Sequence record: PX290280.1
Direction: 5' to 3' (one strand)
DNA: 44,859 nt
Source of the DNA: a phage
Under the pieces are notes generated by a model. That model worked only from the letters and a program-made list of their open reading frames with translations, had not been told where the DNA came from and made no database searches. How positions within the stretch are numbered: position 1 is the first letter of the stretch; each line of letters starts with the position of its first letter. Of the stretch, positions 2,287 to 40,249 are shown piece after piece. The translations under genes were made by a program, and so were the position numbers.

Positions 2287-2400
2287 ATGGAAAGGCAATA
2301 TAACTTCATCTTCTCAGACGGTGTAACCCTGAAATGTTCCTTACGATTTGCGCAGATTCGTGAGGAAGTGCTAGGTACTACATACAAACTATTTAGCTGA
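2287..2400 (+). CDS. Hypothetical small protein (37 aa)
   Basis: GAGGAA ribosome-binding site directly after the ocr stop codon. Confidence 0.4.
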   Translation: MERQYNFIFSDGVTLKCSLRFAQIREEVLGTTYKLFS

Positions 2401-2415
2401 CACTATAAGAGAAGG
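2391..2415 (+). promoter_or_regulatory. Degenerate phage-promoter-like sequence (ATTTAGCTGACACTATAAGAGAAGG)
   Basis: Matches the phage promoter core but has an extra A before the initiating G; upstream of the RNAP gene. Confidence 0.35.
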
Positions 2416-2476
2416 CTTAACAAGGCGTTGCTACGGTAGCGCCTGATTAAACTTTCACTTACTAGGAGTTGAGATT

Positions 2477-2662
2477 ATGAAAACCTTGATTGGATGCTTC
2501 TTGTTGGCTTCTCTTGCTCTGGCATTTACCGCTAAAGCTGGTTATGACGCTTATAAAGTAGAACAAGCCCAGCAAGACTGGGCCAAAAAGTTCAACTTGT
2601 GCAGCAAGAGCAACACCTACGAGTACTGCAACAAAACACTAAGACACTTATGGAAAGAGTAA
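2477..2662 (+). CDS. Small secreted protein (61 aa) with a signal peptide
   Basis: N-terminus MKTLIGCFLLASLALAFTAKA-GYD looks like a Sec signal peptide with an AKA cleavage site; mature part carries two Cys; AGGAG ribosome-binding site. Confidence 0.6.
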   Translation: MKTLIGCFLLASLALAFTAKAGYDAYKVEQAQQDWAKKFNLCSKSNTYEYCNKTLRHLWKE

Positions 2663-2725
2663 CTAGCCTATAGCCTACCTGAGTGGGCTATGTGATATTT
2701 ACTTACACTATATAAGGTGATTACT

Positions 2726-3610
2726 ATGACTACTGAAAACACCCTCGTGTCTGTCCGTGAAGCTGCAACCGCTGAAATCAAGCAACATTTAGACAATATC
2801 GGCACTTCTTACATCAAAGTTGGCGCTTGTCTGAATGAATTACGCGGTGATTTCGAAGGTCAAAAAGACTTTTTAGCTTATGTAGAATCAGAGTTCGGCA
2901 TCAAGAAGGCACAATGCTACAAGCTGATGAGTGTAGCCCGTGTCTTTGAAGGAGACGAACGCTTTAAAGGTGTGGCTATGCGTGTAATGCTGGCGCTTGT
3001 TCCTTTCGCTGATGAAAATATAATCATGGAGAAGGCCGCAGAACTCGCCGCAGCTGGCAAGCTGGACACTAATGCCGTAAACGCCCTGATTGAACCTAAG
3101 AAAGAGATAAAGACTGAAACGGTACAATCTAAGGCTGTGGCGGTAAAACCGCAGGAGAACGCGACTAAGGCCGCAGAATCACAGGAAATGCAAGCGCCGC
3201 AGGTAGTGACACCCGCGAGCGAGCAGGAGGCCGACGAATCAGCACCATGGGAAGAGGAAAGCAAGCCGGAAGCGCCAAAGGTAGCGCCGCTGGATAACAC
3301 GGCTAATACCGAAAACGCCGCTATGGCTAGCCTCTTAGCACAAATTAAGGCACTGACTGAGCAATTACAGGCAGCTAATGACCGCATCGCCTCCTTAAGT
3401 AGCGCACGCGAAAGCAAGAAGGCAGCCGCACCTATGCTGCCGCAATTCAAATCTTCCTGCTTCTATGCTCGCTTAGGTTTAAGCGCTGAGGAGGCAACGA
3501 AGAAAACAGCAGTTAACAAGGCACGCCGCGAACTGGTTAAGCTAGGCTATGGTGAAGGCCATGAAGCATGGCCCTTAATCTCTGAGGCAGTAGAAGAGTT
3601 GACTAAGTAA
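2726..3610 (+). CDS. Early protein with a KfrA/DUF3102-like N-terminal domain and an Ala/Glu/Lys-rich coiled-coil tail
   Basis: ATG 2726 with AAGGTGA ribosome-binding site (the track's GTG at 2717 is less likely). N-terminal FLAYVESEFGIKKAQCYKLMSVARVF resembles a DNA-binding domain; C-terminal half is low-complexity coiled coil. Confidence 0.6.
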   Translation: MTTENTLVSVREAATAEIKQHLDNIGTSYIKVGACLNELRGDFEGQKDFLAYVESEFGIKKAQCYKLMSVARVFEGDERFKGVAMRVMLALVPFADENIIMEKAAELAAAGKLDTNAVNALIEPKKEIKTETVQSKAVAVKPQENATKAAESQEMQAPQVVTPASEQEADESAPWEEESKPEAPKVAPLDNTANTENAAMASLLAQIKALTEQLQAANDRIASLSSARESKKAAAPMLPQFKSSCFYARLGLSAEEATKKTAVNKARRELVKLGYGEGHEAWPLISEAVEELTK

Positions 3611-3673
3611 CCTTATCGGTGGCATCTTCTTAGGTGTCACCTATTAAGGTTTCTTTCACTAGGAGTAAACAAG

Positions 3674-6301
3674 ATGCAAGACCTACACGCTATTCAACTT
3701 CAACTTGAAGAAGAAATGTTTAACGGCGGTATCCGTCGCTTTGAAGCGGACCAACAACGCCAGATTGCATCCGGTAATGAATCAGACACGGCATGGAATC
3801 GCCGCTTATTGTCCGAACTAATCGCACCTATGGCGGAAGGTATTCAGGCTTACAAGGAAGAATACGAAGGCAAGAGAGGTCGTGCACCACGTGCATTAGC
3901 TTTCATTAACTGCGTAGGAAACGAAGTGGCAGCATATATCACCATGAAAATCGTTATGGATATGCTGAATACAGACGTTACCTTACAAGCAATCGCTATG
4001 AATGTAGCGGACCGCATCGAAGACCAAGTACGTTTTAGCAAGCTGGAAGGTCACGCAGCTAAGTACTTTGAGAAAGTGAAGAAGTCACTTAAGGCTAGCA
4101 AGACTAAATCTTATCGTCATGCGCACAACGTAGCGGTAGTAGCTGAGAAATCTGTTGCTGACCGTGACGCGGATTTCTCCCGTTGGGAGGCATGGCCTAA
4201 AGACACCTTGCTGCAAATCGGTATGACCTTGCTCGAAATATTGGAGAATAGTGTATTCTTCAATGGTCAACCTGTCTTCCTTCGTACCTTGCGCACTAAC
4301 GGCGGAAAGCATGGTGTTTACTATTTACAGACCAGTGAACATGTTGGAGAGTGGATAACTGCATTTAAGGAACATGTAGCGCAGCTCAGCCCTGCCTATG
4401 CACCTTGCGTTATACCTCCCCGCCCTTGGGTATCACCTTTTAACGGTGGGTTTCATACTGAGAAAGTAGCAAGCCGTATTCGTCTGGTAAAAGGCAATCG
4501 TGAGCACGTCCGCAAGCTGACCAAAAAGCAAATGCCAGCCGTTTATAAGGCTGTTAACGCTTTGCAGGCAACTAAGTGGCAGGTTAATAAAGAGGTTTTA
4601 CAGGTTGTGGAGGACGTTATACGTCTAGACCTCGGCTATGGTGTGCCTTCCTTTAAACCACTCATCGACCGTGAGAACAAGCCAGCTAATCCAGTGCCGT
4701 TAGAGTTCCAGCACCTGCGAGGCCGTGAACTTAAAGAGATGCTAACGCCGGAACAATGGCAAGCCTTCATCAACTGGAAAGGCGAATGTACCAAGCTGTA
4801 TACCGCTGAAACTAAGCGCGGCAGCAAATCGGCGGCGACCGTCCGCATGGTTGGGCAGGCACGTAAATACAGCCAGTTTGACGCCATCTACTTCGTGTAT
4901 GCACTGGACAGCCGCAGCCGCGTCTACGCGCAATCTAGCACGCTCTCTCCGCAATCAAACGACTTAGGCAAGGCATTGCTCCGTTTTACCGAAGGGCAGC
5001 GTCTTGATAGCGCTGAGGCGCTTAAGTGGTTTTTGGTGAACGGGGCTAATAACTGGGGTTGGGATAAGAAAACTTTTGACGTGCGCACCGCTAACGTGCT
5101 GGATAGTGAATTTCAAGACATGTGCCGCGACATTGCAGCGGATCCGCTTACCTTCACTCAATGGGTAAATGCCGACTCCCCTTACGGCTTCCTTGCATGG
5201 TGCTTTGAATATGCGCGTTATCTGGATGCACTGGATGAAGGCACGCAAGACCAATTCATGACGCACCTCCCAGTCCATCAAGATGGTAGTTGCTCTGGTA
5301 TCCAGCACTATAGCGCGATGTTACGCGATGCAGTAGGTGCGAAAGCGGTAAACCTTAAGCCCTCTGACTCCCCTCAAGATATTTATGGTGCCGTTGCGCA
5401 GGTAGTAATTCAGAAGAATTATGCATACATGAATGCAGAGGATGCGGAAACCTTCACTTCTGGCAGCGTGACTTTAACAGGTGCGGAACTGCGTAGCATG
5501 GCTAGTGCGTGGGATATGATAGGAATCACTCGCGGCCTGACCAAAAAGCCCGTAATGACACTACCTTATGGCAGCACACGTCTAACCTGCCGTGAGTCAG
5601 TGATTGATTATATCGTTGATTTAGAAGAAAAAGAGGCCCAACGGGCTATTGCGGAAGGGCGTACCGCCAACCCTGTACATCCTTTTGATAATGACCGTAA
5701 GGACAGCCTGACACCTAGCGCAGCTTATAACTATATGACAGCTTTAATCTGGCCTTCTATTTCGGAAGTGGTTAAAGCTCCTATAGTGGCAATGAAAATG
5801 ATTCGTCAGCTTGCACGTTTCGCAGCTAAAAGAAACGAAGGCTTAGAATATCCCTTACCAACTGGCTTCATCTTGCAACAAAAGATAATGGCTACCGATA
5901 TGCTCCGCGTATCCACTTGCTTGATGGGTGAAATCAAGATGAGTCTCCAGATTGAAACAGATGTAGTTGATGAAACGGCAATGATGGGTGCGGCTGCTCC
6001 TAACTTCGTCCATGGTCACGATGCTAGCCACCTGATTCTGACTGTATGTGACCTAGTGGATAAAGGTATTACATCCATTGCAGTCATCCATGATTCTTTC
6101 GGTACTCATGCAGGACGTACCGCAGACCTGCGGGATAGCTTAAGGGAAGAAATGGTTAAGATGTATCAAAACCATAATGCCCTGCAAAACCTGCTAGATG
6201 TGCACGAAGAGCGTTGGTTAGTAGACACCGGAATCCAAGTACCAGAGCAAGGAGAGTTTGACCTTAACGAAATCTTAGTTTCAGACTATTGTTTCGCATA
6301 A
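3674..6301 (+). CDS. Single-subunit DNA-directed RNA polymerase (SP6-type)
   Basis: 875 aa; N-terminus [32 protein letters not shown] and much of the body match SP6 RNA polymerase as recalled; T7-RNAP-family segments [18 protein letters not shown] and IHDSFGTHA are present. Confidence 0.95.
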
Positions 6302-6308
6302 TATTAAT

Positions 6309-6340
6309 AGGCCATTCCTTAGGGAGTGGCCTTTTTCTTT
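6309..6340 (+). terminator. Intrinsic-type terminator after the RNAP gene
   Basis: 10-bp stem aggccattcc / ggagtggcct with a 4-nt loop, followed by TTTTTCTTT. Confidence 0.6.
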
Positions 6341-6374
6341 ACCTACTACCTGTAACATTTCATTAACATAAAGT

Positions 6375-6392: not shown

Positions 6393-6415
6393 ATTTACCG
6401 GACACTATAGGATAG
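6393..6415 (+). promoter_or_regulatory. Phage RNAP promoter (ATTTACCGGACACTATAGGATAG)
   Basis: Matches the 23-nt consensus shared by 12 sites. Confidence 0.7.
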
Positions 6416-6586: not shown

Positions 6587-6609
6587 ATTTACCGGACAGT
6601 ATAGATAAG
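6587..6609 (+). promoter_or_regulatory. Phage RNAP promoter variant (ATTTACCGGACAGTATAGATAAG)
   Basis: Consensus match with a C-to-G change in the core (GACAGTATAG). Confidence 0.55.
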
Positions 6610-6768: not shown

Positions 6769-8757
6769 ATGGCTATTATTCAGAATGTACCGTGTCCTGC
6801 CTGTCAAAAGAATGGACATGATATTACTGGCAACCATCTTATGATATTTGAGGATGGCGCTGGTTACTGTAACCGTGGTCACTTCCATGATAACGGCAAG
6901 CCTTATTACCATAAGCCAGAGGGTGGCATCGAGATAACCGAATTACCTATTACTGGCAATATCAAATATACACCTTCTCAGTTTAAAGAGATGGAGAAGG
7001 AAGGGAAGATTAGCGACCCTAAGCTACGCGCCATCGCACTTGGTGGTATGCGTATGAAAGACCGTTGGGAGGTCATGAATGAGCAAGAAAGGGCAGAACA
7101 AGAAGCAGAGTGGAAACTTGATGTTGAATGGTTCCTCACGCTTAAGCGTAAGAACCTTGTATCCCGTCACATTCGAGGTGACATCGCAGCAATGTACGAT
7201 GTGCGCGTTGGACACGATGAAGAGGGAAGAGTCAACCGTCACTATTATCCACGATATGAAAAGGGTGTGCTTGTTGGAGCAAAATGCCGGACGTTGCCGA
7301 AGGATTTTAAGTTCGGACACCTAGGTAAACTCTTTGGTATGCAAGACCTTTTCGGTATGAACACTTTGTCTCACGTGTTAGACAAGGGAAGACGAAAGGA
7401 TTGCTTGCTTATTGTGGGCGGCGAACTGGATGCACTAGCAGCACAGCAGATGCTCCTTGATTCTGCCAAGGGTACTAAGTGGGAAGGCCAGCCTTACCAT
7501 GTATGGTCTGTCAATAAAGGTGAGTCTTGCCTTGAAGAGATAGTGCAGAGCCGTGAGCATATCGCCCAATTCAAGAAGATTATATGGGGTTTTGATGGAG
7601 ATGAGGTGGGGCAGAAGCAGAACCAACAAGCTGCTCGCCTGTTTCCTGGCAAATCCTACATCCTCGAATACCCCTCTGGTTGCAAAGATGCTAACAAGGC
7701 ATTGATGGCTGGCAAGGCTAAAGAATTTGTGGATGCTTGGTTTAATGCAAAGTCATCTGATGAAGTCTTTGGTAGCCAGATTAAATCTATCGCATCTCAA
7801 AGGGATAAGCTCAAGGCTGCACGTCCAGAGCAAGGACTATCATGGCCTTGGCCTAAGCTGAACAAGGTAACGCTGGGTATTCGTAAGAACCAGCTTATCA
7901 TTATAGGTGCAGGCTCTGGTGTAGGTAAGACTGAGTTCCTTCGTGAAGTTGTTAAGCACCTCATTGAAGAACACGGTGAATCTGTAGGCATCATTTCTAC
8001 AGAAGACCCAATGGTCAAGGTGTCCCGTGCTTTTATCGGTAAGTGGATTGATAAGCGTATTGAGTTACCACCAACCAACGACCCGAAAGAAGACGGATAC
8101 CGTGAGGTGTTCGATTACACCGAGGAAGAAGCTAACGCTGCCATTGATTATGTGGCTGATACAGGAAAGCTATTTGTGGCTGACCTAGAAGGCGACTATT
8201 CGATGGAGAAGGTAGAGCAAACTTGCCTAGAGTTTGAGGCTATGGGAATTTCTAATATCATCATTGATAACTTAACGGGGATTAAATTAGATGAGCGTGC
8301 TTTTGGTGGGAAGGTTGGTGCACTTGATGAATGCGTCAAACGAATTGGTACTATCAAAGACCGACATGCGGTTACGATTTTCCTTGTCTCTCACCTTACA
8401 CGTCCTCCGGCAAACCGTACCCAACACGAAGAAGGTGGCGAAGTTATCCTTTCTGACTTCCGAGGCTCAGGCGCTATCGGATTCTGGGCATCTTACGCCT
8501 TGGGGATTGAGCGTAATACAAGAGCTGAAACGCTTGATGAAAGGACTACCACGTACATCTCTTGTGTCAAAGACCGCGACCAAGGTATCTACACAGGAAC
8601 CAAAGTCATGCTCAAGGGTGACATTCAGACCGGACGCTTGAGAGAACCACAAGCTAGAACAAGGTCGTTTGATACAGGCGAAGCAAGGCAACAAGAAGTA
8701 CCGGATTTACCGGACACTATAGAAGAGACAACATTTGACGATGAACAGGAGTTTTAA
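6769..8757 (+). CDS. DNA primase/helicase (T7 gp4-like)
   Basis: N-terminal zinc ribbon CPACQ...CNRGH, DnaB-type Walker A GAGSGVGKTE, and an acidic C-terminal tail ending DDEQEF. Confidence 0.9.
   Translation: MAIIQNVPCPACQKNGHDITGNHLMIFEDGAGYCNRGHFHDNGKPYYHKPEGGIEITELPITGNIKYTPSQFKEMEKEGKISDPKLRAIALGGMRMKDRWEVMNEQERAEQEAEWKLDVEWFLTLKRKNLVSRHIRGDIAAMYDVRVGHDEEGRVNRHYYPRYEKGVLVGAKCRTLPKDFKFGHLGKLFGMQDLFGMNTLSHVLDKGRRKDCLLIVGGELDALAAQQMLLDSAKGTKWEGQPYHVWSVNKGESCLEEIVQSREHIAQFKKIIWGFDGDEVGQKQNQQAARLFPGKSYILEYPSGCKDANKALMAGKAKEFVDAWFNAKSSDEVFGSQIKSIASQRDKLKAARPEQGLSWPWPKLNKVTLGIRKNQLIIIGAGSGVGKTEFLREVVKHLIEEHGESVGIISTEDPMVKVSRAFIGKWIDKRIELPPTNDPKEDGYREVFDYTEEEANAAIDYVADTGKLFVADLEGDYSMEKVEQTCLEFEAMGISNIIIDNLTGIKLDERAFGGKVGALDECVKRIGTIKDRHAVTIFLVSHLTRPPANRTQHEEGGEVILSDFRGSGAIGFWASYALGIERNTRAETLDERTTTYISCVKDRDQGIYTGTKVMLKGDIQTGRLREPQARTRSFDTGEARQQEVPDLPDTIEETTFDDEQEF
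8705..8727 (+). promoter_or_regulatory. Phage RNAP promoter inside the 3' end of the primase/helicase gene
   Basis: ATTTACCGGACACTATAGAAGAG. Confidence 0.7.
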
Positions 8758-8990: not shown

Positions 8991-9713
8991 ATGTATAAAT
9001 TAGTATTGAATGTAGGTGATTATGTTCGTAACATCAATGAAGCCTCACGTCGTTATCGTTGCCGTGGTGTAGTGGCTCGTGTAAGTGAGAACATGTATCA
9101 TGTAGAATATGATGATGATATTAAGGCTTCTTATCACAAGAAAACCACACATAAATATCTTGAAAAGGTTGTAGAGGTAAACAATCAATGTAAGTGCATA
9201 CATGATGAGGTTTGCGATAAGTGTGCACGTCAGGTAGTTAAAGCCTTTACCTTTGCTCAACGCTATGGTTCTATGTATGGTGCTGGTAACAAGACCCTTG
9301 CAGAAGCAGCTTGGAAGACATTGCAGTTTGAGCGTTCAAATGGACGACGCACCGCACTTAAGAAAGAGCGCCGCAATGTAATCACTGGTAAGACTCAAAG
9401 TGAGATGATTAAGCAATATGGCACTGCATTAGGTGTTACACAGTTCAATACTCGTGCATTGGGTAAATCCACAGGGCAAGCTATGGTGAAAATTGGTGAA
9501 GCTATGATGCACCCAAATGTGCCTGTGCGAATCTTGGATGTTGACCATGCAATCACAGAGCATGGCACACCACGCCGTGTAGCTAACAATCATTTTGCCG
9601 ACACTATAGAAGGTATTATTCTTAAGCAAGGGTTGAAGGGTCTTCACATCTTAAATGGTGAAGAATTACTGTACCTACCTATCGTTACTGAAGAAACATA
9701 CGTGAATATCTAA
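8991..9713 (+). CDS. Hypothetical protein (240 aa) with a Cys cluster
   Basis: ATG 8991 with GGAGA ribosome-binding site (the track's upstream TTG is less likely); CKCIHDEVCDKC motif. Confidence 0.6.
   Translation: MYKLVLNVGDYVRNINEASRRYRCRGVVARVSENMYHVEYDDDIKASYHKKTTHKYLEKVVEVNNQCKCIHDEVCDKCARQVVKAFTFAQRYGSMYGAGNKTLAEAAWKTLQFERSNGRRTALKKERRNVITGKTQSEMIKQYGTALGVTQFNTRALGKSTGQAMVKIGEAMMHPNVPVRILDVDHAITEHGTPRRVANNHFADTIEGIILKQGLKGLHILNGEELLYLPIVTEETYVNI
9592..9614 (+). promoter_or_regulatory. Phage RNAP promoter inside a coding region
   Basis: ATTTTGCCGACACTATAGAAGGT. Confidence 0.55.
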
Positions 9714-10273: not shown

Positions 10274-10478
10274 ATTAAGCAAGGTTTGCTCTTGCGGTAA
10301 AGGTTATCGCAGTCGTATTGATGGCAAGTGTGAAAACTGCCGCACTAAAAGGCAGAAAGATCACAATAATAAATACCACATGCACTTAATGTATCTTGAC
10401 CTTAAAGCTACACCTGATTCTGTATTAGGTAAAAGTCTTAGAGTTAAATACTTTGGAGCAATCTATGAAATCAATTGA
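10260..10478 (+). CDS. Small zinc-finger-like protein (about 72 aa)
   Basis: CSCGKG...CENC motif; GAGG upstream; start taken at ATG 10260 rather than the track's 10233. Confidence 0.5.
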   Translation: MKTIKLSKVCSCGKGYRSRIDGKCENCRTKRQKDHNNKYHMHLMYLDLKATPDSVLGKSLRVKYFGAIYEIN

Positions 10479-12884
10479 TTGGAAGAAGGAAGCAGAAGGT
10501 CGTATCTTAGTAATGGATGCGGAAGCTAAAGGTCTGCTGGATACTATCCGCTACGGTCATCGTGAAGATGTACACATCATTTGCTGCATGGATTTGCTTA
10601 CTACAGAGGAGTTCTTATTCTTTGACCCATATGAGATGCGTGACCCTGAAGCAAGGGAACACCTGAAAGAGTGGGAAGGCCATCAAGATGGAACCTTGGT
10701 TGATGGTGTTAACTTCCTAAAGCACTGTGAAGCCATCGTCTCACAGAACTTCCTAGGGTACGACGGCCTTCTATTTGAGAAAGCATTCCCTGATATCTGG
10801 AAAGGCTTTAACTATACCGAGAGACGCGGCAAGGGCAGACTCCGCGCTGACCTGTGTCCGGTACGCGTCATGGATACGCTGGTCATGAGTCGCCTGTTAA
10901 ACCCCGATAGACGCCTTCCTCCGCAAGCATATGCCAAAGGTATGGGTAACGTCGCCCCTCACTCAATTGAGGCGCACGGCATCCGTATAGGCCGCTATAA
11001 ACCGGAGAACGAGGACTGGTCTAAACTAACTGACCACATGGTTCACCGTGTACGCGAGGACGTGGCGATAGGCCGTGACCTATTCCTCTGGCTATTTAAC
11101 GGAGAATGGACGGAGCACAAACGCCGTGGCGTGAATAAACGCACTGGCCTAGGTATTGAGACAGCCTTCCACATGGAGTCCATTGTGGCGCTGGAGATGA
11201 GCCGTCAGGCCGAGCGTGGATTCCGTCTGGATATAGATAAAGCATTAGCACGATGCGAAGAACTGGACGCTAAGATTGATGAGACAGTCGCAGCGTTCCG
11301 CCCTCACATGCCTATGCGTATCAAGTCTAAACCTTTTAAACCGGAAGAAAAGAATGAAGTATGCCAACGCGCAAATGAGTATGGAGCTAGCAACAATATA
11401 CCTACTGTCCTTGACCCCTCACACTTTCTTCATGCCGAGAGACGAGGAGATCGCAAGACAGTATGGAGTGTCACTACTAAGTCTGGTGATTGGTCGGCTA
11501 GTGTCAAGAAAGACTTTCCTCACCTTAGAGGAAACCGTAATGACACGCCAAGTATCAAGTGGATTGGCGCTTACTCGCCTGTTACTTTCGAAGAGATTCC
11601 CTTGGGTAACAGGGATACAGTTAAGCAAGTGCTCTATGATTATGGATGGAAAGGTGTTGAATTTAACGATACCGAGCAAGCGCATCTGGATGAGTATGGA
11701 GTGTTACCCAAACCTTGGAGTGGGAAGATAAATGAAAAGTCCCTTACTTTATGGCAAGAGAGAGCCGCACGTGAAGGTAAAACAGTCCCTGATTGGTGCT
11801 TGGGTATCGCTGCATGGTACATACTCGTATCCCGTCGTGGTACGATCCTTAACCGTGGTGACGTTGAAGCCTTCGACCAGAAGGGGGTGTGGCCTTCGCA
11901 AGCTGGTGTACGAAAGTGTCGCGGCCTTGTACCTGTAGCATTTAACAAGGAGTTAGGAATCAATGCGCAGCAATACTATGAGAGGTATGGGTGTTGGCCT
12001 ACGTCTGACAAGGATGACGGAGAGTGGCGTGTTCCGGCTGTGATGGTGCTGGTCTTGAACTACGTGTACTATCTCACTTCATGAATGACCCTGAGTATCA
12101 AGATATTGTACTGCATGGTGATATACATACTCATAACCAGATGAAGGCTGGTCTTCCCAAGCGTGATATGGCGAAGACATTTATATATGCCTTCTTATAT
12201 GGGTCTGGTATAGCTAACCTTGCAGCAGTATGCGGTGTTACTGAGGAAGAAATGAAGGAAGTTGTGGCAAGATTTGAGATTGAACTACCTTCCCTTGCAC
12301 GTCTTCGTGAGAATGTTATCGCACAAGGTAACAAGTTTGGCTATCTACAAGCACCTGATGGGCATTGGGGTCGCATCCGTATGTCTGGTGGTGAACTTAA
12401 AGAGCACACTATGCTTAACGTACTACTCCAGATGACTGGCTCTCTGTGTATGAAATACGCATTGGTCAGAGCGTTTGCAGTGATGCGCAAGGAGGGTGTG
12501 GCTCTAGATAGCATGGGTAACCCTTGCGGTGTAGCTAACGTGCACGATGAAATCCAGATGGAAGTACCTGAAGATGAGGTCTTGTATCTCAACTACGACT
12601 TGCCTTTCACCGTAGAAGGGTTCGAAACAGAGAAGGCTGCTGTGAAAGCAGTGTTCGATGCAGAGGAGAAACGTGTTCATGTGGATTCTGAAGGACGTAT
12701 GTGGTCTGCTGCAAATCTCGTTAGCGTTGATGCTGATGCTGGTGTACTTCATTGCCAGCGTCGTTATCACCGTGCAGGGCATATCATTGCCGATGCAATG
12801 ACTTGGGCTGGTCATTATTTGAAGATGCGTTGTCCGATGGCAGGTGAGTATAAGATTGGTGCAAGCTGGAAGGAAACACACTGA
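10465..12884 (+). CDS. DNA polymerase (family A, T7 gp5-like), interrupted by an apparent -1 frameshift near 12042
   Basis: The first frame reaches ...GEWRVPAV and stops at 12084. The next frame carries motif A DGAGLELRVLSHFM, motif B KTFIYAFLYGSG and motif C VHDEIQ, matching T7 DNAP as recalled. Re-reading G12042 joins them into one polypeptide. Confidence 0.85.
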
Positions 12885-13156: not shown

Positions 13157-13417
13157 ATGATTAAATATACTGCTTATCAGTTAACTAAAGACCGTAAGAT
13201 AGGTATTGAGGTTAAGGCTTGGGAGCGAGGTCATATCTCTGGAGTAATAGAGGTGCGTTCCAACGAAGGTATGATGATTAGAAGACACTTTAGTTTCGCT
13301 AAATCTACTTGTAAGCATTTAACAGAGGAACAATTCTTACATCATATTATTAATAATATTAAAGCTATCCAGCCTTATGCCAAGCAAGTTGTAGGTAATG
13401 TCACAGTAGTACATTGA
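13157..13417 (+). CDS. Hypothetical protein (86 aa)
   Basis: AAGGA ribosome-binding site; ORF track entry. Confidence 0.6.
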   Translation: MIKYTAYQLTKDRKIGIEVKAWERGHISGVIEVRSNEGMMIRRHFSFAKSTCKHLTEEQFLHHIINNIKAIQPYAKQVVGNVTVVH

Positions 13418-13439
13418 TTTACTGGACACTATAGAAGGA
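13417..13439 (+). promoter_or_regulatory. Phage RNAP promoter (consensus copy)
   Basis: ATTTACTGGACACTATAGAAGGA. Confidence 0.8.
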
Positions 13440-13886: not shown

Positions 13887-14186
13887 ATGATGGAAGAAGT
13901 AATTCAAGCTAAACATGTAGGTATTATCTTTCGTGATCTAGAGCAGCGTAAAGTAGCAGGTCATATTCGTCTGGCTAAAGAGGAAGACACCGCAATCACT
14001 ACTGTAGAACAAGCAGATGCCTATCGTGGTCCAGAGTTTACTCAAGGTGAAACTTGTCATCAATTGAGCCTTTCACTTTGTGACACTATGGCTAGTGTAA
14101 ATGTACAAGAGGTTGAAGATGGTGAATGTGTTAGTTATGTCTACCCTCTCGATACTATTGCACGTATTAAGGTAGTTCATAAGTAA
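13887..14186 (+). CDS. Hypothetical protein (99 aa)
   Basis: AGGAG ribosome-binding site. Confidence 0.65.
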   Translation: MMEEVIQAKHVGIIFRDLEQRKVAGHIRLAKEEDTAITTVEQADAYRGPEFTQGETCHQLSLSLCDTMASVNVQEVEDGECVSYVYPLDTIARIKVVHK

Positions 14187-14207
14187 TTACTGGACACTAT
14201 AGAACAA
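14185..14207 (+). promoter_or_regulatory. Phage RNAP promoter
   Basis: AATTACTGGACACTATAGAACAA. Confidence 0.75.
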
Positions 14208-15330: not shown

Positions 15331-15353
15331 ATTTACTGGACACTATAGAAGAG
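15331..15353 (+). promoter_or_regulatory. Phage RNAP promoter
   Basis: ATTTACTGGACACTATAGAAGAG. Confidence 0.8.
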
Positions 15354-17537: not shown

Positions 17538-18537
17538 GCTTCGCAGCTTGTACAAAGACTCCGAGGTACTTGATGCAATCGAGCAAGCTACCGACGAGAA
17601 AGGTAATGTTAACTACAACGAGATGGCACGGGTATTATCGTGTCACCCTGTGGGTAAGAAGATTACCCGCCAGTTGGCTCGATACTGGCATGGTCAATTC
17701 AAGAAGACCAAGAAGAATGGTGATTACTACCAGACTCTTCTGCAAGAGGATAAGCGTATCAAAGAGGAGCGTAAGCTCAGGACTCCTGACCGCTACGAGG
17801 ATTTGGCTATTGTACCATTGCCTGACTCGCCTCATCGAAGTGTACTGGTAATCCCTGACACTCATGCACCTTATGAGCACCCAGATACCTTAGAGTTTCT
17901 GGCAGTGGTGGCAGCACGTTACCATCCAGACACTGTAGTTCATCTGGGTGATGAGGCAGATAAACATGCCTTATCGTTCCACGATTCAGACCCCAATCTG
18001 GATAGTGCTGGCATGGAGTTAGAGAAGGCCCGTGTCTTTATGCATAAATTACACAAGATGTTTCCTGTGATGCGCCTGTGTCATTCTAATCACGGCTCTA
18101 TGCACTTCCGTAAGGCAAGCGCCAAAGGTATTCCAGTGCAATATCTTCGTACATACCGTGAAGTCTTCTTCCCAAATGGAGGTGGCGACCAGTGGGATTG
18201 GCAACATACACACGTACTTGAGTTGCCGAATGGTGAACAGGTTGCATTTAAGCATCAACCCGCAGGCTCAGTATTAGCAGATGCAGCGCATGAGCGCATG
18301 AACTTAGTGTGCGGTCACTTGCATGGTAAGATGTCGGTGGAGTATGCACGTAACACACATGAGCAGTATTGGGCTGTGCAGGGCGGCTGTCTGATTGATG
18401 AGTCATCTCGTGCATTTGCCTATGGTCGTGAGTCCAAATACAAGCCAGCATTAGGTTGTGTGGTTATTCTGGAGGGTGTGCCGCACATTGTCCCGATGCA
18501 GACCAATAGTGACAATCGCTGGATTGGTAAGATTTAG
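17530..18537 (+). CDS. Calcineurin-like metallophosphoesterase
   Basis: Start TTG 17530, 6 nt after AAGGAGG. Motifs IPDTHAPY (D-x-H), HLGDEAD (GD-x-x-D), HSNHG (GNH-like) and CGHLHG (GH-x-H). Confidence 0.75.
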   Translation: MGKLRSLYKDSEVLDAIEQATDEKGNVNYNEMARVLSCHPVGKKITRQLARYWHGQFKKTKKNGDYYQTLLQEDKRIKEERKLRTPDRYEDLAIVPLPDSPHRSVLVIPDTHAPYEHPDTLEFLAVVAARYHPDTVVHLGDEADKHALSFHDSDPNLDSAGMELEKARVFMHKLHKMFPVMRLCHSNHGSMHFRKASAKGIPVQYLRTYREVFFPNGGGDQWDWQHTHVLELPNGEQVAFKHQPAGSVLADAAHERMNLVCGHLHGKMSVEYARNTHEQYWAVQGGCLIDESSRAFAYGRESKYKPALGCVVILEGVPHIVPMQTNSDNRWIGKI

Positions 18538-18555
18538 TTGACACTATAGAACAAA
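18533..18555 (+). promoter_or_regulatory. Phage RNAP promoter, SP6-like variant (ATTTAGTTGACACTATAGAACAA)
   Basis: The copy closest to the SP6 consensus. Confidence 0.7.
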
Positions 18556-23675: not shown

Positions 23676-23682
23676 TTCAGTA

Positions 23683-23705
23683 TTTACTGGACACTATAGA
23701 AGGGA
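23683..23705 (+). promoter_or_regulatory. Phage RNAP promoter upstream of the capsid gene
   Basis: ATTTACTGGACACTATAGAAGGG. Confidence 0.85.
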
Positions 23706-24963: not shown

Positions 24964-24971
24964 TACCTATG

Positions 24972-25007
24972 CCCTATCTACCTTGCGTAGGTAGGGTTCT
25001 TTTTGTT
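24972..25007 (+). terminator. Terminator after the capsid gene (T-phi equivalent)
   Basis: ccctatctacc-ttgc-gtaggtaggg hairpin followed by TTCTTTTTGTT. Confidence 0.75.
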
Positions 25008-36366: not shown

Positions 36367-36649
36367 ACATGCAGCTACAGAGGACGAGGTTGGCATTCTG
36401 CATGGTGCTATTACCAAAATCTTCAATAAGAAAGCACAGGCAATACTGGACACTATAGAAGAAGACCCTGATGCAGCATTACATTTAGTGTCTGGTAAGG
36501 ATATTGGTGCGATGTGTAAGTGGGTTCTTGATAACGGCATTACCGCCACACCTGCTGCACAGCAGGAAGAGTCCAAGTTATCTAAGCGCCTCAAGGCTAT
36601 CCGAGAGGCATCCAGTGGTAAGATAATTCAATTCACTAAGGAGGATTGA
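36350..36649 (+). CDS. Terminase small subunit
   Basis: GTG start 4-5 nt after GGAGGGA; position directly upstream of the large subunit. Confidence 0.55.
   Translation: MSVHNKHAATEDEVGILHGAITKIFNKKAQAILDTIEEDPDAALHLVSGKDIGAMCKWVLDNGITATPAAQQEESKLSKRLKAIREASSGKIIQFTKED
36441..36463 (+). promoter_or_regulatory. Partial phage promoter inside the terminase small-subunit gene
   Basis: CAATACTGGACACTATAGAAGAA: core conserved, upstream ATTTA missing. Confidence 0.45.
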
Positions 36650-38547
36650 TGGCTAAGGCAAGAGAATCACAAGCGGAGGCTCTTGCCAGATGGGAGATGC
36701 TACAGGAGTTACAGCAGACCTTTCCTTACACAGCGGAAGGTTTGCTTCTCTTTGCAGATACAGTTATTCATAACTTAATTGCAGGCAACCCTCATCTGAT
36801 TCGTATGCAGGCGGATATCTTGAAGTTCCTATTTTACGGACACAAGTACCGCCTCATCGAAGCGCCTCGTGGTATCGCTAAGACAACACTATCAGCAATC
36901 TATACGGTATTCCGTATTATTCATGAACCGCATAAGCGTATCATGGTTGTGTCCCAAAACGCCAAGCGAGCAGAGGAAATCGCAGGTTGGGTAGTTAAAA
37001 TCTTCCGTGGCTTAGACTTTCTTGAGTTTATGCTGCCGGATATCTACGCTGGGGACCGTGCATCCGTTAAGGCGTTTGAGATTCATTACACCCTACGTGG
37101 TAGTGATAAGTCTCCTTCTGTATCCTGTTACTCAATCGAAGCAGGTATGCAGGGTGCTCGTGCTGATATTATTCTAGCGGATGACGTAGAGTCGATGCAG
37201 AATGCTCGTACGGCAGCGGGCCGTGCCTTGCTTGAGGAACTGACTAAGGAGTTTGAATCTATCAACCAGTTTGGGGATATCATTTACCTTGGTACACCTC
37301 AGAACGTAAACTCTATCTACAACAACCTACCTGCTCGTGGTTACTCTGTTCGTATCTGGACTGCGCGTTACCCTTCAGTAGAGCAAGAGCAATGTTATGG
37401 CGACTTCCTTGCACCTATGATTGTTCAAGATATGAAGGACAACCCAGCACTTCGCTCAGGGTACGGGTTGGATGGTAATAGTGGTGCACCTTGTGCCCCT
37501 GAAATGTATGATGATGAAGTCCTGATTGAGAAGGAAATCTCTCAGGGTGCTGCTAAGTTCCAGCTTCAGTTCATGCTTAACACTCGCATGATGGATGCTG
37601 ACAGATACCCATTACGCCTGAACAATCTAATCTTCACCTCGTTTGGTACAGAGGAAGTCCCTGTGATGCCTACGTGGAGTAATGATTCCATAAACATCAT
37701 TGGTGATGCACCTAAGTATGGTAACAAGCCTACGGATTTCATGTACAGACCTGTAGCTCGCCCATACGAATGGGGTGCTGTCTCCCGCAAGATTATGTAT
37801 ATTGACCCTGCGGGTGGTGGTAAGAACGGAGATGAGACGGGTGTAGCCATCGTATTCCTGCACGGCACATTCATTTATGTGTATCAGTGCTTTGGTGTAC
37901 CTGGCGGATACCGAGAGTCGTCCCTGAATCGCATTGTGCAGGCCGCAAAGCAGGCGGGTGTTAAAGAGGTATTCATTGAGAAGAACTTTGGTCATGGCGC
38001 GTTTGAGGCGGTAATTAAGCCGTACTTTGAACGAGAGTGGCCTGTAACTCTGGAAGAGGATTACGCCACCGGACAGAAAGAGTTGCGTATCATTGAGACG
38101 CTGGAGCCGCTCATGGCAGCCCATAGGCTTATCTTCAATGCAGAGATGGTGAAGTCAGACTTTGAGTCGGTACAGCACTATCCGCTTGAACTACGCATGT
38201 CCTACAGTCTTTTCAATCAAATGTCGAACATAACGATTGAGAAGAACAGCCTCCGGCACGATGACCGCCTAGACGCCCTGTATGGCGCTATACGGCAATT
38301 AACTTCTCAGATAGACTATGACGAGGTTACACGGATTAATCGCCTCAGAGCGCAGGAGATGCGCGATTACATCCATGCTATGAACACACCTCATCTACGC
38401 AGGGCAATGCTATATGGAGATTACGGTACTGAGCGAAGAGTGACCAACACTTCCGTAGCGATGCAGCAGCGAGTTTACGGGCAGAACTACCGAAATAAAT
38501 CGGCAAGCAGAAATACACTTTCTGCAAGGATTTCAAGGACTTATTAA
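36649..38547 (+). CDS. Terminase large subunit
   Basis: 633 aa; Walker A-like EAPRGIAKTT; AAGGAGG ribosome-binding site; synteny. Confidence 0.85.
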   Translation: MAKARESQAEALARWEMLQELQQTFPYTAEGLLLFADTVIHNLIAGNPHLIRMQADILKFLFYGHKYRLIEAPRGIAKTTLSAIYTVFRIIHEPHKRIMVVSQNAKRAEEIAGWVVKIFRGLDFLEFMLPDIYAGDRASVKAFEIHYTLRGSDKSPSVSCYSIEAGMQGARADIILADDVESMQNARTAAGRALLEELTKEFESINQFGDIIYLGTPQNVNSIYNNLPARGYSVRIWTARYPSVEQEQCYGDFLAPMIVQDMKDNPALRSGYGLDGNSGAPCAPEMYDDEVLIEKEISQGAAKFQLQFMLNTRMMDADRYPLRLNNLIFTSFGTEEVPVMPTWSNDSINIIGDAPKYGNKPTDFMYRPVARPYEWGAVSRKIMYIDPAGGGKNGDETGVAIVFLHGTFIYVYQCFGVPGGYRESSLNRIVQAAKQAGVKEVFIEKNFGHGAFEAVIKPYFEREWPVTLEEDYATGQKELRIIETLEPLMAAHRLIFNAEMVKSDFESVQHYPLELRMSYSLFNQMSNITIEKNSLRHDDRLDALYGAIRQLTSQIDYDEVTRINRLRAQEMRDYIHAMNTPHLRRAMLYGDYGTERRVTNTSVAMQQRVYGQNYRNKSASRNTLSARISRTY

Positions 38548-38568
38548 TTACTGGACACTATAGAAGGA
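38546..38568 (+). promoter_or_regulatory. Phage RNAP promoter
   Basis: AATTACTGGACACTATAGAAGGA. Confidence 0.8.
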
Positions 38569-38598
38569 AGGCCCAGATAATAAGATAAATAATAGGTA

Positions 38599-38619
38599 AT
38601 ATATATATATATATATATA
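38599..38619. repeat. (AT)n dinucleotide microsatellite
   Basis: About ten uninterrupted AT units, followed at 38653-38672 by hairpin gggtgtac-tcct-gtacaccc. Confidence 0.7.
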
Positions 38620-38717
38620 GGTTAACCTAGGTTATATAGGTATGCCTTAGTATGGGTGTACTCCTGTACACCCTATTCCTTACTTCCTTACTATATTTAC
38701 ATAATAGGAGAGAGACA

Positions 38718-38996
38718 ATGGCTAATGATTATAGTAGTCAACCATTAACAGGTAAGTCTAAGAGAAAGCAGGTACAACCTGTAAGTGAAGAACTAATGCT
38801 TCCGGTAATCCCAAAAGAGGCAGCTAGTAAGAAAAGCAATGTTATTAATGATGCCACCAAATCAGGTAAACAGAAAGGGGCCATGGTATGCCTTGAAGTG
38901 GAAGGTGGTGTATTGAAGGTTGCTATCGCGGTTGATGGCAAAGAAGATTCAGAGTGGAAGTTAGTAACAGTGGAACCAGCTGTTAACCCAGTTTAA
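38718..38996 (+). CDS. Small late protein, paralog 1 (92 aa)
   Basis: AGGAGAGAG ribosome-binding site; shares SGKQKGAMV-LE...L-IAVA block with the next ORF. Confidence 0.6.
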   Translation: MANDYSSQPLTGKSKRKQVQPVSEELMLPVIPKEAASKKSNVINDATKSGKQKGAMVCLEVEGGVLKVAIAVDGKEDSEWKLVTVEPAVNPV

Positions 38997-39014
38997 GATA
39001 AGGAGGAAGATTAC

Positions 39015-39308
39015 ATGGCTAAATATGGTACTACAGGTTCTGTTACTGGTCAGGCTTTTCGAGTAAAAGCAGTACAAACTATTGCAACGGCAATCCCGAT
39101 GCCTGTTGTTAAAGAAGCAGACCTTAATAGTAAAGATCACCCTATCAACATCAAACATTTATCAGGTAAACAGAAAGGTGCAATGGTTGCTCTTGAGAAA
39201 AGTGACACAACCTTACATATTGCTGTTGCACGTGGTAGTGAACCAACAGACCCTTGGGATGTAACTGGCATGGAATCGCTCGCTGTCACTCCAGCAGGTG
39301 AAGAATAA
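39015..39308 (+). CDS. Small late protein, paralog 2 (97 aa)
   Basis: AAGGAGG ribosome-binding site; paralogous to 38718..38996. Confidence 0.6.
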   Translation: MAKYGTTGSVTGQAFRVKAVQTIATAIPMPVVKEADLNSKDHPINIKHLSGKQKGAMVALEKSDTTLHIAVARGSEPTDPWDVTGMESLAVTPAGEE

Positions 39309-39652
39309 TGCTTAACAAATACTTCAAGCGCCGTGAGTTCGCTTGCCGTTGTGGGTGCGGTACATCCACTGTTGATGCTGAATTACTACAGGTAGTCACA
39401 GATGTGCGTGAGCACTTTGGTTCCCCTGTAGTTATCACTTCGGGGCATCGCTGTGCTAAGCACAATGCTAATGTAGGAGGAGCTAAGAACTCCATGCATC
39501 TTACTGGTAAGGCTGCTGACATTAAAGTGTCTGGCATATTACCTTCTGAAGTGCATAAGTATCTTACTAGCAAATACCAAGGCAAGTATGGTATCGGTAA
39601 GTATAACTCCTTCACTCACATCGATGTACGGGATGGTTGTGCGCGATGGTAA
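39308..39652 (+). CDS. Endolysin, zinc peptidase M15-type
   Basis: ITSGHRCAKHN...GGAKNSMHLTGKAADI matches the SG-R...N...S-H..G-A-D signature of M15 cell-wall peptidases. Confidence 0.8.
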   Translation: MLNKYFKRREFACRCGCGTSTVDAELLQVVTDVREHFGSPVVITSGHRCAKHNANVGGAKNSMHLTGKAADIKVSGILPSEVHKYLTSKYQGKYGIGKYNSFTHIDVRDGCARW

Positions 39653-39777
39653 GATGTGTTGAATGGTGTGAGCGTATGGTTGCCCAAGCTGCCGAGGATG
39701 GCAACTATGATGACTGGAAGAACTACTCTGACTTGTTAGCTCAATGGAAAGGGAGATGCAATGAAAAAGCTGTTTAA
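39646..39777 (+). CDS. Hypothetical small Cys-containing protein (43 aa)
   Basis: ORF overlapping the endolysin stop; weak ribosome-binding site. Confidence 0.25.
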   Translation: MVRCVEWCERMVAQAAEDGNYDDWKNYSDLLAQWKGRCNEKAV

Positions 39778-39910
39778 GTCTAAGAAGGTTGTAGGTGCAC
39801 TGGTTGCACTTGTTATTGCTCTTGTTTCTGTAGGCCTTGGTGTAGACCTTGGCTCTGGCACGGAATCCTCTGTGACAGATGTGGTCTGCCAAGTGATTAC
39901 CTGTGAATAA
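39761..39910 (+). CDS. Small single-pass membrane protein (49 aa), possible second holin or antiholin
   Basis: GGGAG ribosome-binding site; N-terminal KK-rich region, then transmembrane helix VGALVALVIALVSVGLGV. Confidence 0.5.
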   Translation: MKKLFKSKKVVGALVALVIALVSVGLGVDLGSGTESSVTDVVCQVITCE

Positions 39911-40124
39911 GTTTCTAGAAGTGCTGGCAGGTCTTATTGGCCTGCTTGTCTCTGCTAAGAAGAAACAAGAAGAGAAGGAGGCACAAAGTGAAGCGAATCA
40001 TGCTAGCGACAATCCTGCTGATTGGTTCGCTGACCACTTCCGGGTGTCAGCAGGCGTTACCAGAGAAAGCAATGGTGAAACCTCTGGGGCCGACGCTGAC
40101 GGCAGTTTACGAGGTGGAAGATAA
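39903..40124 (+). CDS. i-spanin-like protein (Rz-like)
   Basis: N-terminal transmembrane helix FLEVLAGLIGLLVSA followed by a charged region; overlapped by the lipoprotein ORF. Confidence 0.5.
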   Translation: MNKFLEVLAGLIGLLVSAKKKQEEKEAQSEANHASDNPADWFADHFRVSAGVTRESNGETSGADADGSLRGGR

Positions 40125-40197
40125 GGTCTGTTTCAGTAAGCCTGACGCTACAAAACTTGGTCTGTACATTCTTTCGCTAGAACGAGGATATAATTAA
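39988..40197 (+). CDS. o-spanin-like outer-membrane lipoprotein (Rz1-like)
   Basis: GTG start 6 nt after AAGGAGG; signal peptide with lipobox LTTSG-C; overlaps the i-spanin ORF in another frame. Confidence 0.6.
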   Translation: MKRIMLATILLIGSLTTSGCQQALPEKAMVKPLGPTLTAVYEVEDKVCFSKPDATKLGLYILSLERGYN

Positions 40198-40226
40198 TAC
40201 ATAACTTTATGTATCAGTGTCTTACG

Positions 40227-40249
40227 ATTTACTGGACACTATAGAAGGA
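40227..40249 (+). promoter_or_regulatory. Phage RNAP promoter upstream of the tailspike genes
   Basis: ATTTACTGGACACTATAGAAGGA. Confidence 0.8.

What the first reader, a model, noticed from the sequence alone, without database searches (positions are those of the whole stretch)
2391..40249. Phage promoter consensus differs from SP6 at positions that set polymerase specificity
Twelve sites share ATTTACTGGACACTATAGAAGGA (13417, 14185, 15331, 23683, 38546, 40227 and variants at 6393, 6587, 8705, 9592, 18533, 36441). The SP6 promoter as I recall it is ATTTAGGTGACACTATAGAAG, so the block upstream of GACACTATAG reads CTG/CCG here instead of GGT. The polymerase is nevertheless very close to SP6 RNAP, which makes this a natural case of promoter-polymerase co-variation. 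The site at 18533 (AGTTGACAC) is closest to SP6.
Basis: partly seen in the sequence, partly recalled or inferred. Interest (0 to 1): 0.5.

Follow-up and report, generated by a model that had tools for sequence, protein, structure and literature searches.

The report
K1E-type phage promoters, not SP6-type
The window is a K1E/K1-5-like coliphage genome whose 13 phage-polymerase promoters differ from the SP6 promoter mainly at position -11, matched by one Arg-to-Ser change in the polymerase's promoter-reading loop; this promoter type is real but already known and already used in biotechnology.

Summary
Thirteen sites, all on the + strand, share ATTTACTGGACACTATAGAAG; shuffled sequence gives none. 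The window is a Vectrevirus (K1E/K1-5-like) genome, 94-97% identical in DNA to published phages. All 13 sites have positional counterparts in K1E and K1-5, and 10 have flank-orthologous counterparts in SP6.

Compared with SP6's 13 sites, only -12, -11 and -10 differ. Only -11 separates the two sets completely: C/T in 13 of 13 here, G in 13 of 13 in SP6.

The RNA polymerase (3674-6301) is 99.9% identical to K1E gp7 and 85% to SP6 RNAP. Of the four loop residues that read bases in T7 (R746, N748, R756, Q758), the only difference is at the N748 equivalent: Ser747 here, Arg746 in SP6. In T7 and T3 that residue reads -11 and -10.

Across 31 related genomes and contigs the link holds at clade level. 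Ser-type loops have C/T at -11 in 89 of 91 sites; Arg/Lys/Ser-type loops have G in 110 of 110.

So the co-variation reading is supported, but as a single lineage event. Strict discrimination is not shown: a 97%-identical polymerase used the SP6 promoter in vitro. The K1E promoter type is already published. Interest is low.

The parts
2391..2413 (+). Promoter-like site ATTTAGCTGACACTATA|AGAGAA (-17..+6), with A at +1. It lies upstream of the gp5/gp6/RNAP gene block.
   Evidence: Orthologous to K1E 2779, K1-5 2014 and SP6 2104 (upstream flank score 58).
3674..6301 (+). Single-subunit RNA polymerase gene (875 aa).
   Evidence: 99.9% identical to K1E gp7, 99.0% to K1-5, 85.1% to SP6 RNAP, 34.6% to T7 RNAP. 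E = 4e-111 to T7 RNAP structures.
5876..5977 (+). Specificity loop [34 protein letters not shown], equivalent to T7 residues 736-772.
   Evidence: Six of the 34 residues differ from SP6 (Q735E, D742E, S747R, E753D, I760V, V764I, T768A region).
5912..5914 (+). Codon TCC for Ser747, the equivalent of T7 Asn748 and SP6 Arg746 (CGT).
   Evidence: (two independent alignments). Arg CGY to Ser TCY needs two base changes.
6393..6415 (+). Promoter ATTTACCGGACACTATA|GGATAG, just after the RNAP gene.
   Evidence: Orthologous to SP6 6118.
6587..6609 (+). Promoter variant ATTTACCGGACAGTATA|GATAAG (G at -5), upstream of the primase/helicase gene block.
   Evidence: Orthologous to SP6 6287.
8705..8727 (+). 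Promoter ATTTACCGGACACTATA|GAAGAG, inside the 3' end of the helicase gene.
   Evidence: Orthologous to SP6 8411.
9592..9614 (+). Promoter variant ATTTTGCCGACACTATA|GAAGGT, upstream of the DNA polymerase region.
   Evidence: Same gene-order position as SP6 9112, but the flanks have diverged.
13417..13439 (+). Promoter ATTTACTGGACACTATA|GAAGGA (exact consensus).
   Evidence: Orthologous to SP6 12542.
14185..14207 (+). Promoter AATTACTGGACACTATA|GAACAA.
   Evidence: It shares A at -16 and GAACAA with SP6 13005.
15331..15353 (+). Promoter ATTTACTGGACACTATA|GAAGAG.
   Evidence: Orthologous to SP6 14286.
18532..18554 (+). Promoter ATTTAGTTGACACTATA|GAACAA, the most SP6-like site; it differs from the SP6 consensus at -11 and +4.
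   Evidence: Orthologous to SP6 17428.
23682..23704 (+). Promoter ATTTACTGGACACTATA|GAAGGG, 50 nt upstream of the major capsid gene (23755-24963).
   Evidence: Identical from -17 to +6 to K1E 24431. Orthologous to SP6 22413.
24971..25007 (+). Terminator-like hairpin plus T-run directly after the capsid gene; it closes the capsid transcription unit.
   Evidence: 11-bp stem, then TCTTTTTGTT.
36441..36463 (+). Promoter variant CAATACTGGACACTATA|GAAGAA, inside the small-terminase gene and upstream of the large terminase gene.
   Evidence: Present in K1E (37182) and K1-5 (35488); no SP6 counterpart.
38546..38568 (+). Promoter AATTACTGGACACTATA|GAAGGA, at the end of the large terminase gene.
   Evidence: Orthologous to SP6 37773.
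40227..40249 (+). Promoter ATTTACTGGACACTATA|GAAGGA (exact consensus), upstream of the two tailspike genes (40267-41766 and 41851-44286).
   Evidence: Orthologous to SP6 39910.

Best explanation
The 13 sites are the middle and late promoters of a K1E/K1-5-like phage (genus Vectrevirus). They are read by the phage's own T7-family single-subunit RNA polymerase, encoded at 3674-6301. They are the same promoter set as in phages K1E and K1-5.

Relative to the sister SP6 lineage, each orthologous promoter changed in place. The G at -11, invariant in SP6-type phages, became C or T, with shifts in preference at -12 (towards C) and -10 (towards G). In parallel, the polymerase residue equivalent to T7 Asn748, which reads -11/-10 in T7 and T3, changed from Arg to Ser.

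Most likely Arg746 of SP6-type enzymes reads G at -11. Ser747 of the K1E type has lost that contact and favours a pyrimidine there. The result would be a shifted and probably asymmetric preference: the SP6 type strict for G, the K1E type more tolerant.

Shown here: the sites, their orthology, the base statistics, the residue equivalence and the clade-wide association. Inferred: that Ser747 causes the shift, and how strongly the two enzymes discriminate.
For: - Site statistics.
- Phage identity: 94-97% DNA identity to K1E, K1-5 and other Vectrevirus records.
- All 13 sites have counterparts in K1E and K1-5.
- Position-by-position comparison with SP6's 13 sites: the divergence measure is 1.00 at -11, 0.34 at -12, 0.31 at -10 and at most 0.13 elsewhere.
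- Ten of the 13 sites have flank-orthologous SP6 promoters. They keep site-specific bases at -16 and +4..+6, so the change happened in place.
- Loop alignment by MAFFT and by HMMER against T7 structures: T7 R746/N748/R756/Q758 correspond to window R745/S747/K755/S757 and to SP6 R744/R746/K754/S756.
- Survey of GenBank genomes, IMG/VR contigs and metagenome contigs: Ser-type loops have C/T at -11 in 89 of 91 sites; Arg/Lys/Ser-type loops (Salmonella, and Klebsiella Ulipvirus whose RNAP is about 85% identical to both SP6 and K1E) have G in 110 of 110.
- A second variant pair supports T7-like reading by this loop: a Lys-to-Phe change at the R756 equivalent goes with -9 T and -8 G.
- PMC11880802 reports coupling of the N748 position with promoter positions that correspond to -11/-10, pairs a basic residue (K) with G there, and lists K1E and SP6 as separate clusters.
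- K1E RNAP drives expression from a K1E promoter; the paper describes using capsid-gene promoters for the phage RNAPs it tested (PMC6412113).
- The 97.4%-identical RNAP No. 2049 uses TATTTACTGGACACTATAGGAGGA (PMC13029058).
Against: - The association is a single clade-level event, so it cannot separate Ser747 from the other 130 or so differences between the two polymerases.
- In a T7 background, grafting the K1E or SP6 key residues gave no active pair. The authors conclude that these enzymes may not follow T7 rules (PMC11880802).
- Proteus phage PM93 has Arg at this position but A at -11.
- No. 2049 was at least as active on the SP6 promoter as on its own consensus (3.5% against about 2%), although it also carries Gly at the Q758 equivalent.
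- Two of the 91 Ser-type sites have G at -11.
- No transcription start was mapped here.
Confidence: 0.8

Rival explanations
1. The difference has no functional consequence. Both polymerases use both promoter types about equally, and CTG/CCG against GGT is a historical accident carried along by descent.
For: - RNAP No. 2049 is 97.4% identical to the window enzyme and has Ser at the N748 equivalent. It gave 3.5% signal on the SP6 promoter against about 2% on its own consensus (PMC13029058; identity).
- A Ser-type Vectrevirus contig carries a perfect SP6 consensus at L014:2709, acquired with a patch 93% identical to a Klebsiella Ulipvirus.
- -12 and -10 vary within both genomes.
Against: - At least 10 orthologous promoters all changed G to C/T at -11 in place while keeping their other idiosyncrasies. 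Drift would leave a mixture.
- Arg/Lys/Ser-type genomes show G at -11 in 110 of 110 sites, and Ser-type genomes show C/T in 89 of 91.
- Arg to Ser needs two base changes.
- The L014 promoter may be dispensable because of read-through from upstream promoters.
- No. 2049 also has Gly at the Q758 equivalent.
Confidence: 0.15
2. The preference shift is real but is set by residues other than Ser747. Candidates are the other loop changes (D742, E753, I760, V764), the Lys-to-Arg change in the AT-rich recognition loop, or the N-terminal domain.
For: - The loop differs from SP6 at six positions, and the AT-rich loop has R68 where SP6 has K68.
- Grafting only the three key residues into T7 RNAP did not transfer K1E or SP6 specificity (PMC11880802).
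- PM93 has Arg but A at -11.
Against: - Ser747/Arg746 is the only difference among the four residues that contact bases in the T7 complex.
- It sits at the position known to read -11/-10.
- The AT-rich promoter segment (-17..-13) does not differ between the two promoter sets.
Confidence: 0.2
3. The repeats are not promoters; they are some other repeated element or a chance occurrence.
For: None found.
Against: - Shuffles give 0 matches against the 7 observed.
- All copies lie on the coding strand, at gene-block starts.
- They contain the T7-group core CACTATAG.
- They are conserved in position in K1E, K1-5 and SP6.
- The same sequence works as a promoter for near-identical polymerases.
Confidence: 0.01

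Closest known systems
Promoters of coliphages K1E and K1-5 (Vectrevirus). From my own memory, not readable here: catalogued by Scholl et al. 2004 J Mol Biol 335:1151 and modelled by Chen & Schneider 2005 Nucleic Acids Res 33:6172.
   Same: All 13 window sites have a counterpart at the same map position in K1E (AM084415) and K1-5 (AY370674), with the same consensus ATTTAC(T/C)GGACACTATAGAAG. The polymerase is 99.9% and 99.0% identical to theirs.
   Different: Only single-base differences at individual sites. For example, 38546 has CTG where K1E 40033 has CCG, and K1-5 has GGATAC at its 8320 site.
SP6 promoter with SP6 RNA polymerase (Zindervirus)
   Same: Same 23-bp architecture, with identical -9..+1 GACACTATAG and the AT-rich -17..-13. 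Ten promoters are orthologous by their flanking sequence. The polymerase is 85% identical.
   Different: -11 is C/T here in 13 of 13 sites and G in SP6 in 13 of 13. -12 is mostly C here and mostly G in SP6. -10 is mostly G here and mostly T in SP6. The loop residue is Ser747 here and Arg746 in SP6.
T7 versus T3 promoter discrimination through Asn748/Asp748. This is established knowledge; the contact residues are quoted in PMC11880802.
   Same: The same loop position co-varies with the base at -11/-10 in a pair of closely related polymerases.
   Different: The residues are Arg and Ser rather than Asn and Asp. Causality has been demonstrated by mutagenesis for T7/T3 but not for this pair. K1E-type and SP6-type enzymes did not follow the T7-derived rules when grafted into T7 RNAP.
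RNAP No. 2049 and its promoter 2049-6 (PMC13029058, 2026)
   Same: 97.4% identical to the window polymerase. Its promoter is TATTTACTGGACACTATAGGAGGA, the same -17..+1 as the window consensus.
   Different: It has Gly rather than Ser at the T7 Q758 equivalent. It was shown to use the SP6 promoter as well.

Membership tests
T7-group phage promoters for single-subunit RNA polymerase | A conserved element of about 23 bp with the core CACTATAG at -7..+1 and an AT-rich -17..-13. | tested here: met
   -9..-6 and -4..-1 are invariant in all 13 sites. -5 is C in 12 of 13 and +1 is G in 12 of 13. -17..-13 reads ATTTA with at most 3 deviations per column.
T7-group phage promoters for single-subunit RNA polymerase | Many copies, all on the transcribed strand, placed ahead of gene blocks. 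| tested here: met
   13 copies, all on the + strand, in intergenic positions or at gene ends. The capsid gene is bracketed by the promoter at 23682 and a terminator-like hairpin at 24971.
T7-group phage promoters for single-subunit RNA polymerase | The genome encodes a cognate single-subunit RNAP with a specificity loop. | tested here: met
   The 875-aa ORF matches T7 RNAP structures at E = 4e-111, and the loop aligns without gaps across R746-Q758.
T7-group phage promoters for single-subunit RNA polymerase | Transcription starts at +1 and depends on the phage polymerase. | not testable with these tools
   Only indirect evidence is available. K1E RNAP drives a K1E promoter (PMC6412113). The No. 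2049 enzyme transcribes from the same -17..+1 sequence (PMC13029058).
K1E/K1-5-type (Vectrevirus) promoter set | Consensus ATTTAC(T/C)GGACACTATAGAAG, with a pyrimidine at -11. | tested here: met
   13 of 13 sites have C/T at -11. The same holds in 89 of 91 sites from 14 Ser-type genomes and contigs.
K1E/K1-5-type (Vectrevirus) promoter set | Sites at the same map positions as in K1E and K1-5. | tested here: met
   13 of 13 sites have counterparts in both genomes.
K1E/K1-5-type (Vectrevirus) promoter set | A polymerase with the loop [16 protein letters not shown] (Ser at the T7 N748 equivalent). | tested here: met
   The loop is identical to that of K1E and K1-5.
SP6-type promoter (Zindervirus, Ulipvirus) | G at -11 in every promoter, with consensus ATTTAGGTGACACTATAG. 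| tested here: not met
   0 of 13 window sites have G at -11. SP6-type genomes have G in 110 of 110 sites.
SP6-type promoter (Zindervirus, Ulipvirus) | A polymerase loop with Arg at the T7 N748 equivalent (LRVRTCLMGDIK). | tested here: not met
   The window has Ser747.

The most novel reading that the evidence does not exclude
A single residue swap (Arg746 in SP6 RNAP, Ser747 in K1E-type RNAP) is sufficient to switch the base preference at promoter position -11 between G and pyrimidine. That would give a natural, minimally different and at least one-way orthogonal polymerase-promoter pair in the SP6 branch. Published T7-derived rules have failed in this branch.
Probability: 0.35. Interest if true: 0.35.

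Novelty: already known. Interest (0 to 1): 0.2.

Why it matters
It matters little for discovery. The window is one more K1E/K1-5-like phage, and its promoter type is published, used in expression systems and already placed in a specificity cluster separate from SP6.

The small added value is a sharper, testable statement. Among SP6-like phages, only position -11 separates the two promoter types, and it tracks a single loop residue. All orthologous promoters switched in place. The Ser-type enzyme seems to tolerate SP6 promoters, which would ease the exchange of tail-gene modules between lineages. That could guide the design of orthogonal SP6-family polymerase-promoter pairs.

Tried and rejected
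- I tried to read the primary sources for SP6 promoter mutagenesis (PMC18112, PMC2849652), for the K1-5/SP6 genome and promoter analyses (PMC135020, PMC374404) and for the promoter models (PMC1275584). None is held. The effect of -11 substitutions on SP6 RNAP, and the original K1-5 promoter tables, therefore rest on my memory only.
- The supplements of PMC6412113 and PMC11880802 are not held. [quoted passage not shown] - I looked for a solved SP6-type polymerase-promoter structure. There is none, only T7 and mitochondrial enzymes.
- I looked for intermediates, meaning an Arg loop with pyrimidine at -11 or a Ser loop with a G-type promoter set, in IMG/VR and metagenome contigs. I found none apart from two single sites.
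- More distant SP6-like phages (Klebsiella pKV-BS375-3.1, L023, L025, L026, L035, L045) use promoters without the CACTATAG core. I did not analyse them further.
- I rejected chance or a non-promoter repeat as an explanation.
- I did not run a structure prediction. Two independent alignments already agree on the residue equivalence, and a model without DNA would not show the contact.
Full report
**Observation.** The 23-mer ATTTACTGGACACTATAGAAGGA occurs exactly at 13417 and 40227. With up to three mismatches it occurs 7 times, all on the + strand, while 100 dinucleotide-preserving shuffles gave none. The core GACACTATAGAAG with up to two mismatches gives 14 matches against 1.33 expected.

Listing every near-match to GACACTATAG in the -17..+6 register gives 13 convincing sites, all on the + strand. 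Their -17 positions are 2391, 6393, 6587, 8705, 9592, 13417, 14185, 15331, 18532, 23682, 36441, 38546 and 40227. The recalled SP6 consensus is correct: the SP6 genome has 13 sites with consensus ATTTAGGTGACACTATAGAAG. Site 18532 is the most SP6-like, with 2 mismatches in 21.

**What the window is.** The first 25 kb is 94-97% identical to many Vectrevirus genomes, including K1E, K1-5, T145P2 and SHAK7163. The gene order is that of K1E and K1-5. Each of the 13 sites has a counterpart at the same map position in both K1E and K1-5. The sites sit ahead of gene blocks. For example, 23682 lies 50 nt upstream of the major capsid gene, which is followed by a terminator-like hairpin at 24971-24997. This is the standard layout of a T7-group phage transcribed by its own polymerase.

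**Where the promoters differ from SP6.** A column-by-column comparison of the 13 window sites with the 13 SP6 sites shows complete separation at one position only, -11:

| Position | Window (13 sites) | SP6 (13 sites) | Divergence |
|---|---|---|---|
| -12 | C10 G3 | G8 A2 C2 T1 | 0.34 |
| -11 | C5 T8 | G13 | 1.00 |
| -10 | G10 T2 C1 | T10 G3 | 0.31 |
| all others | | | at most 0.13 |

Ten window promoters have clearly homologous flanks at an SP6 promoter. Orthologous pairs share site-specific bases: A at -16 and GAACAA at 14185 and SP6 13005; GAAGGG at 23682 and SP6 22413; GAAGAG at 15331 and SP6 14286. The promoters were therefore not replaced. Each one changed at -11 in place.

**The polymerase.** ORF 3674-6301 (875 aa) is 99.9% identical to K1E gp7, 99.0% to K1-5, 85.1% to SP6 RNAP and 34.6% to T7 RNAP. 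The T7 promoter complex uses R746, N748, R756 and Q758 of the specificity loop for base contacts, as quoted in PMC11880802. MAFFT and an independent HMMER alignment to T7 structures both align these residues as follows:

| T7 | Window | SP6 |
|---|---|---|
| R746 | R745 | R744 |
| N748 | S747 | R746 |
| R756 | K755 | K754 |
| Q758 | S757 | S756 |

The only contact-residue difference is Ser against Arg at the N748 equivalent. In T7 and T3 that position reads -11/-10. PMC11880802 finds it coupled to the promoter positions that correspond to -11 and -10, with a basic residue paired with G. Going from Arg (CGT/CGC) to Ser (TCC/TCT) takes two base changes. The AT-rich recognition loop differs by one conservative change (R68 against K68), and the AT-rich promoter segment does not differ.

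**Comparative test.** I collected further genomes and contigs and read both the loop and the promoters in each.

| Loop type (N748 / R756 / Q758 equivalents) | Source | Base at -11 |
|---|---|---|
| Ser / Lys / Ser | 14 Vectrevirus genomes and contigs | C/T in 89 of 91 sites |
| Arg / Lys / Ser | SP6, two other Zindervirus genomes, Salmonella SE29, Klebsiella Ulipvirus Koku, several IMG/VR and metagenome contigs | G in 110 of 110 sites |
| Arg / Phe / Ser | L021, L040 | G in 12 of 12 sites |
| Arg / Arg / Ser | Proteus PM93 | A in 9 of 11 sites |

- Koku's RNAP is about 85% identical to both SP6 and K1E, yet it has the Arg loop and SP6-type promoters. Ser plus pyrimidine at -11 is therefore the derived state of the Vectrevirus lineage. 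No intermediates were found.
- The Arg/Phe/Ser variant uses promoters ATTT(A/G)TGTTGCACTATAG, with -9 T and -8 G. This supports the idea that the loop reads the promoter in the T7 manner.
- Proteus PM93 uses AATTA(A/G)AGACCACTATAG, so Arg does not always pair with G at -11.

All this amounts to one evolutionary event in the lineage of interest. The site counts are not independent.

**Does the difference matter functionally?** Direct evidence is thin and points to leakiness in one direction.

- PMC13029058 characterised RNAP No. 2049. I find it 97.4% identical to the window enzyme, with Ser at the N748 equivalent but Gly at the Q758 equivalent. Its chosen promoter is TATTTACTGGACACTATAGGAGGA. 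It gave 3.5% signal on the SP6 promoter against about 2% on its own consensus, and up to 10.6% after changes at +2 and +5.
- One Ser-type contig (L014) carries a perfect SP6 consensus ahead of its tail genes. That promoter lies inside a 410-bp patch 93% identical to Klebsiella Ulipvirus, so it was acquired by recombination. Read-through from upstream promoters could make it dispensable.
- On the other side, the absence of any base other than G at -11 in 110 SP6-type sites suggests that the Arg-type enzyme is strict.
- The concerted in-place change of at least 10 promoters argues that the Ser-type enzyme prefers a pyrimidine rather than being indifferent.

My reading is a shifted and probably asymmetric preference. 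The causal role of Ser747 is inferred, not shown.

**Comparison with what is known.**

- K1E RNAP with a K1E promoter is the core of the C3P3-G1 expression system. That paper notes 85% identity between K1E/K1-5 RNAP and SP6 RNAP (PMC6412113).
- PMC11880802 mined phage genomes for polymerase-promoter pairs. It treats K1E and SP6 as separate specificity clusters, and it reports that neither transferred into a T7 background.
- From memory only: the K1-5 promoters were tabulated with the genome (Scholl et al. 2004) and modelled by Chen & Schneider (2005). I could not read those papers here.

The finding is therefore a correct re-discovery of a known promoter type in a new isolate of a known genus. 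I rate novelty as already known and interest as low.

**Things seen in passing.**

- The DNA polymerase gene is broken by a deletion of about 127 bp that none of the relatives listed in the search share.
- The phage carries an uncommon 499-aa tailspike-like gene ahead of the endosialidase gene.
- A degenerate promoter-like site at 2696 is conserved in K1E and K1-5.

Noticed in passing
window 10465-12881: The DNA polymerase gene is interrupted. K1E/K1-5 gp13 residues 1-530 map to 10465-12054 in one frame and residues 567-848 map to 12036-12881 in another. A 301-bp stretch across the junction spans about 428 bp in every relative listed, including one that is 99.7% identical. So the window has a deletion of about 127 bp plus a frameshift. 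This is either an assembly artefact or a defective genome.
   Followed up: partly
window 40267-41766: A 499-aa tailspike-like ORF sits ahead of the endosialidase gene (41851-44286). Its best match is phrog_8649, and its N-terminal ~64 aa resemble the N-terminus of K1-5 gp46. It is neither the short K1E gp46 nor the K5 lyase. It is found in only three records, Vectrevirus T145P2 (two records) and Mt1B1_P10. It suggests a second, uncharacterised receptor specificity.
   Followed up: partly
L021:342-21404 and L040:598-13617: These are SP6-like phage contigs whose polymerase loop has Phe at the T7 R756 equivalent (LRVRTCLMGDVFMSLQ). Their promoters read ATTT(A/G)TGTTGCACTATAG, with -9 T and -8 G instead of G and A. 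This is a second natural loop-promoter co-variation in this subfamily.
   Followed up: partly
L014:2409-2820: A Ser747-type Vectrevirus contig carries a perfect SP6 consensus promoter (ATTTAGGTGACACTATAGAAGAG at 2709) ahead of its tail genes. The promoter lies in a patch 93% identical to Klebsiella Ulipvirus phages, so a promoter was imported together with a tail module.
   Followed up: partly
window 2696-2718: A degenerate promoter-like sequence, TATTTACTTACACTATATAAGG, lies directly upstream of ORF 2717-3610. It is conserved in K1E (3126) and K1-5 (2323). It lacks the GG/GA at -10..-8 and the G at +1, so it is probably not a phage-polymerase promoter.
   Followed up: no
window 24971-25007: A strong terminator-like hairpin (11-bp stem followed by a T-run) lies immediately after the major capsid gene. 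It is the likely counterpart of the T7 T-phi terminator.
   Followed up: no
window 36646-38547: The large terminase gene is a single 633-aa ORF, as in K1-5. In K1E it is split into 40A and 40B by a homing-endonuclease gene.
   Followed up: no
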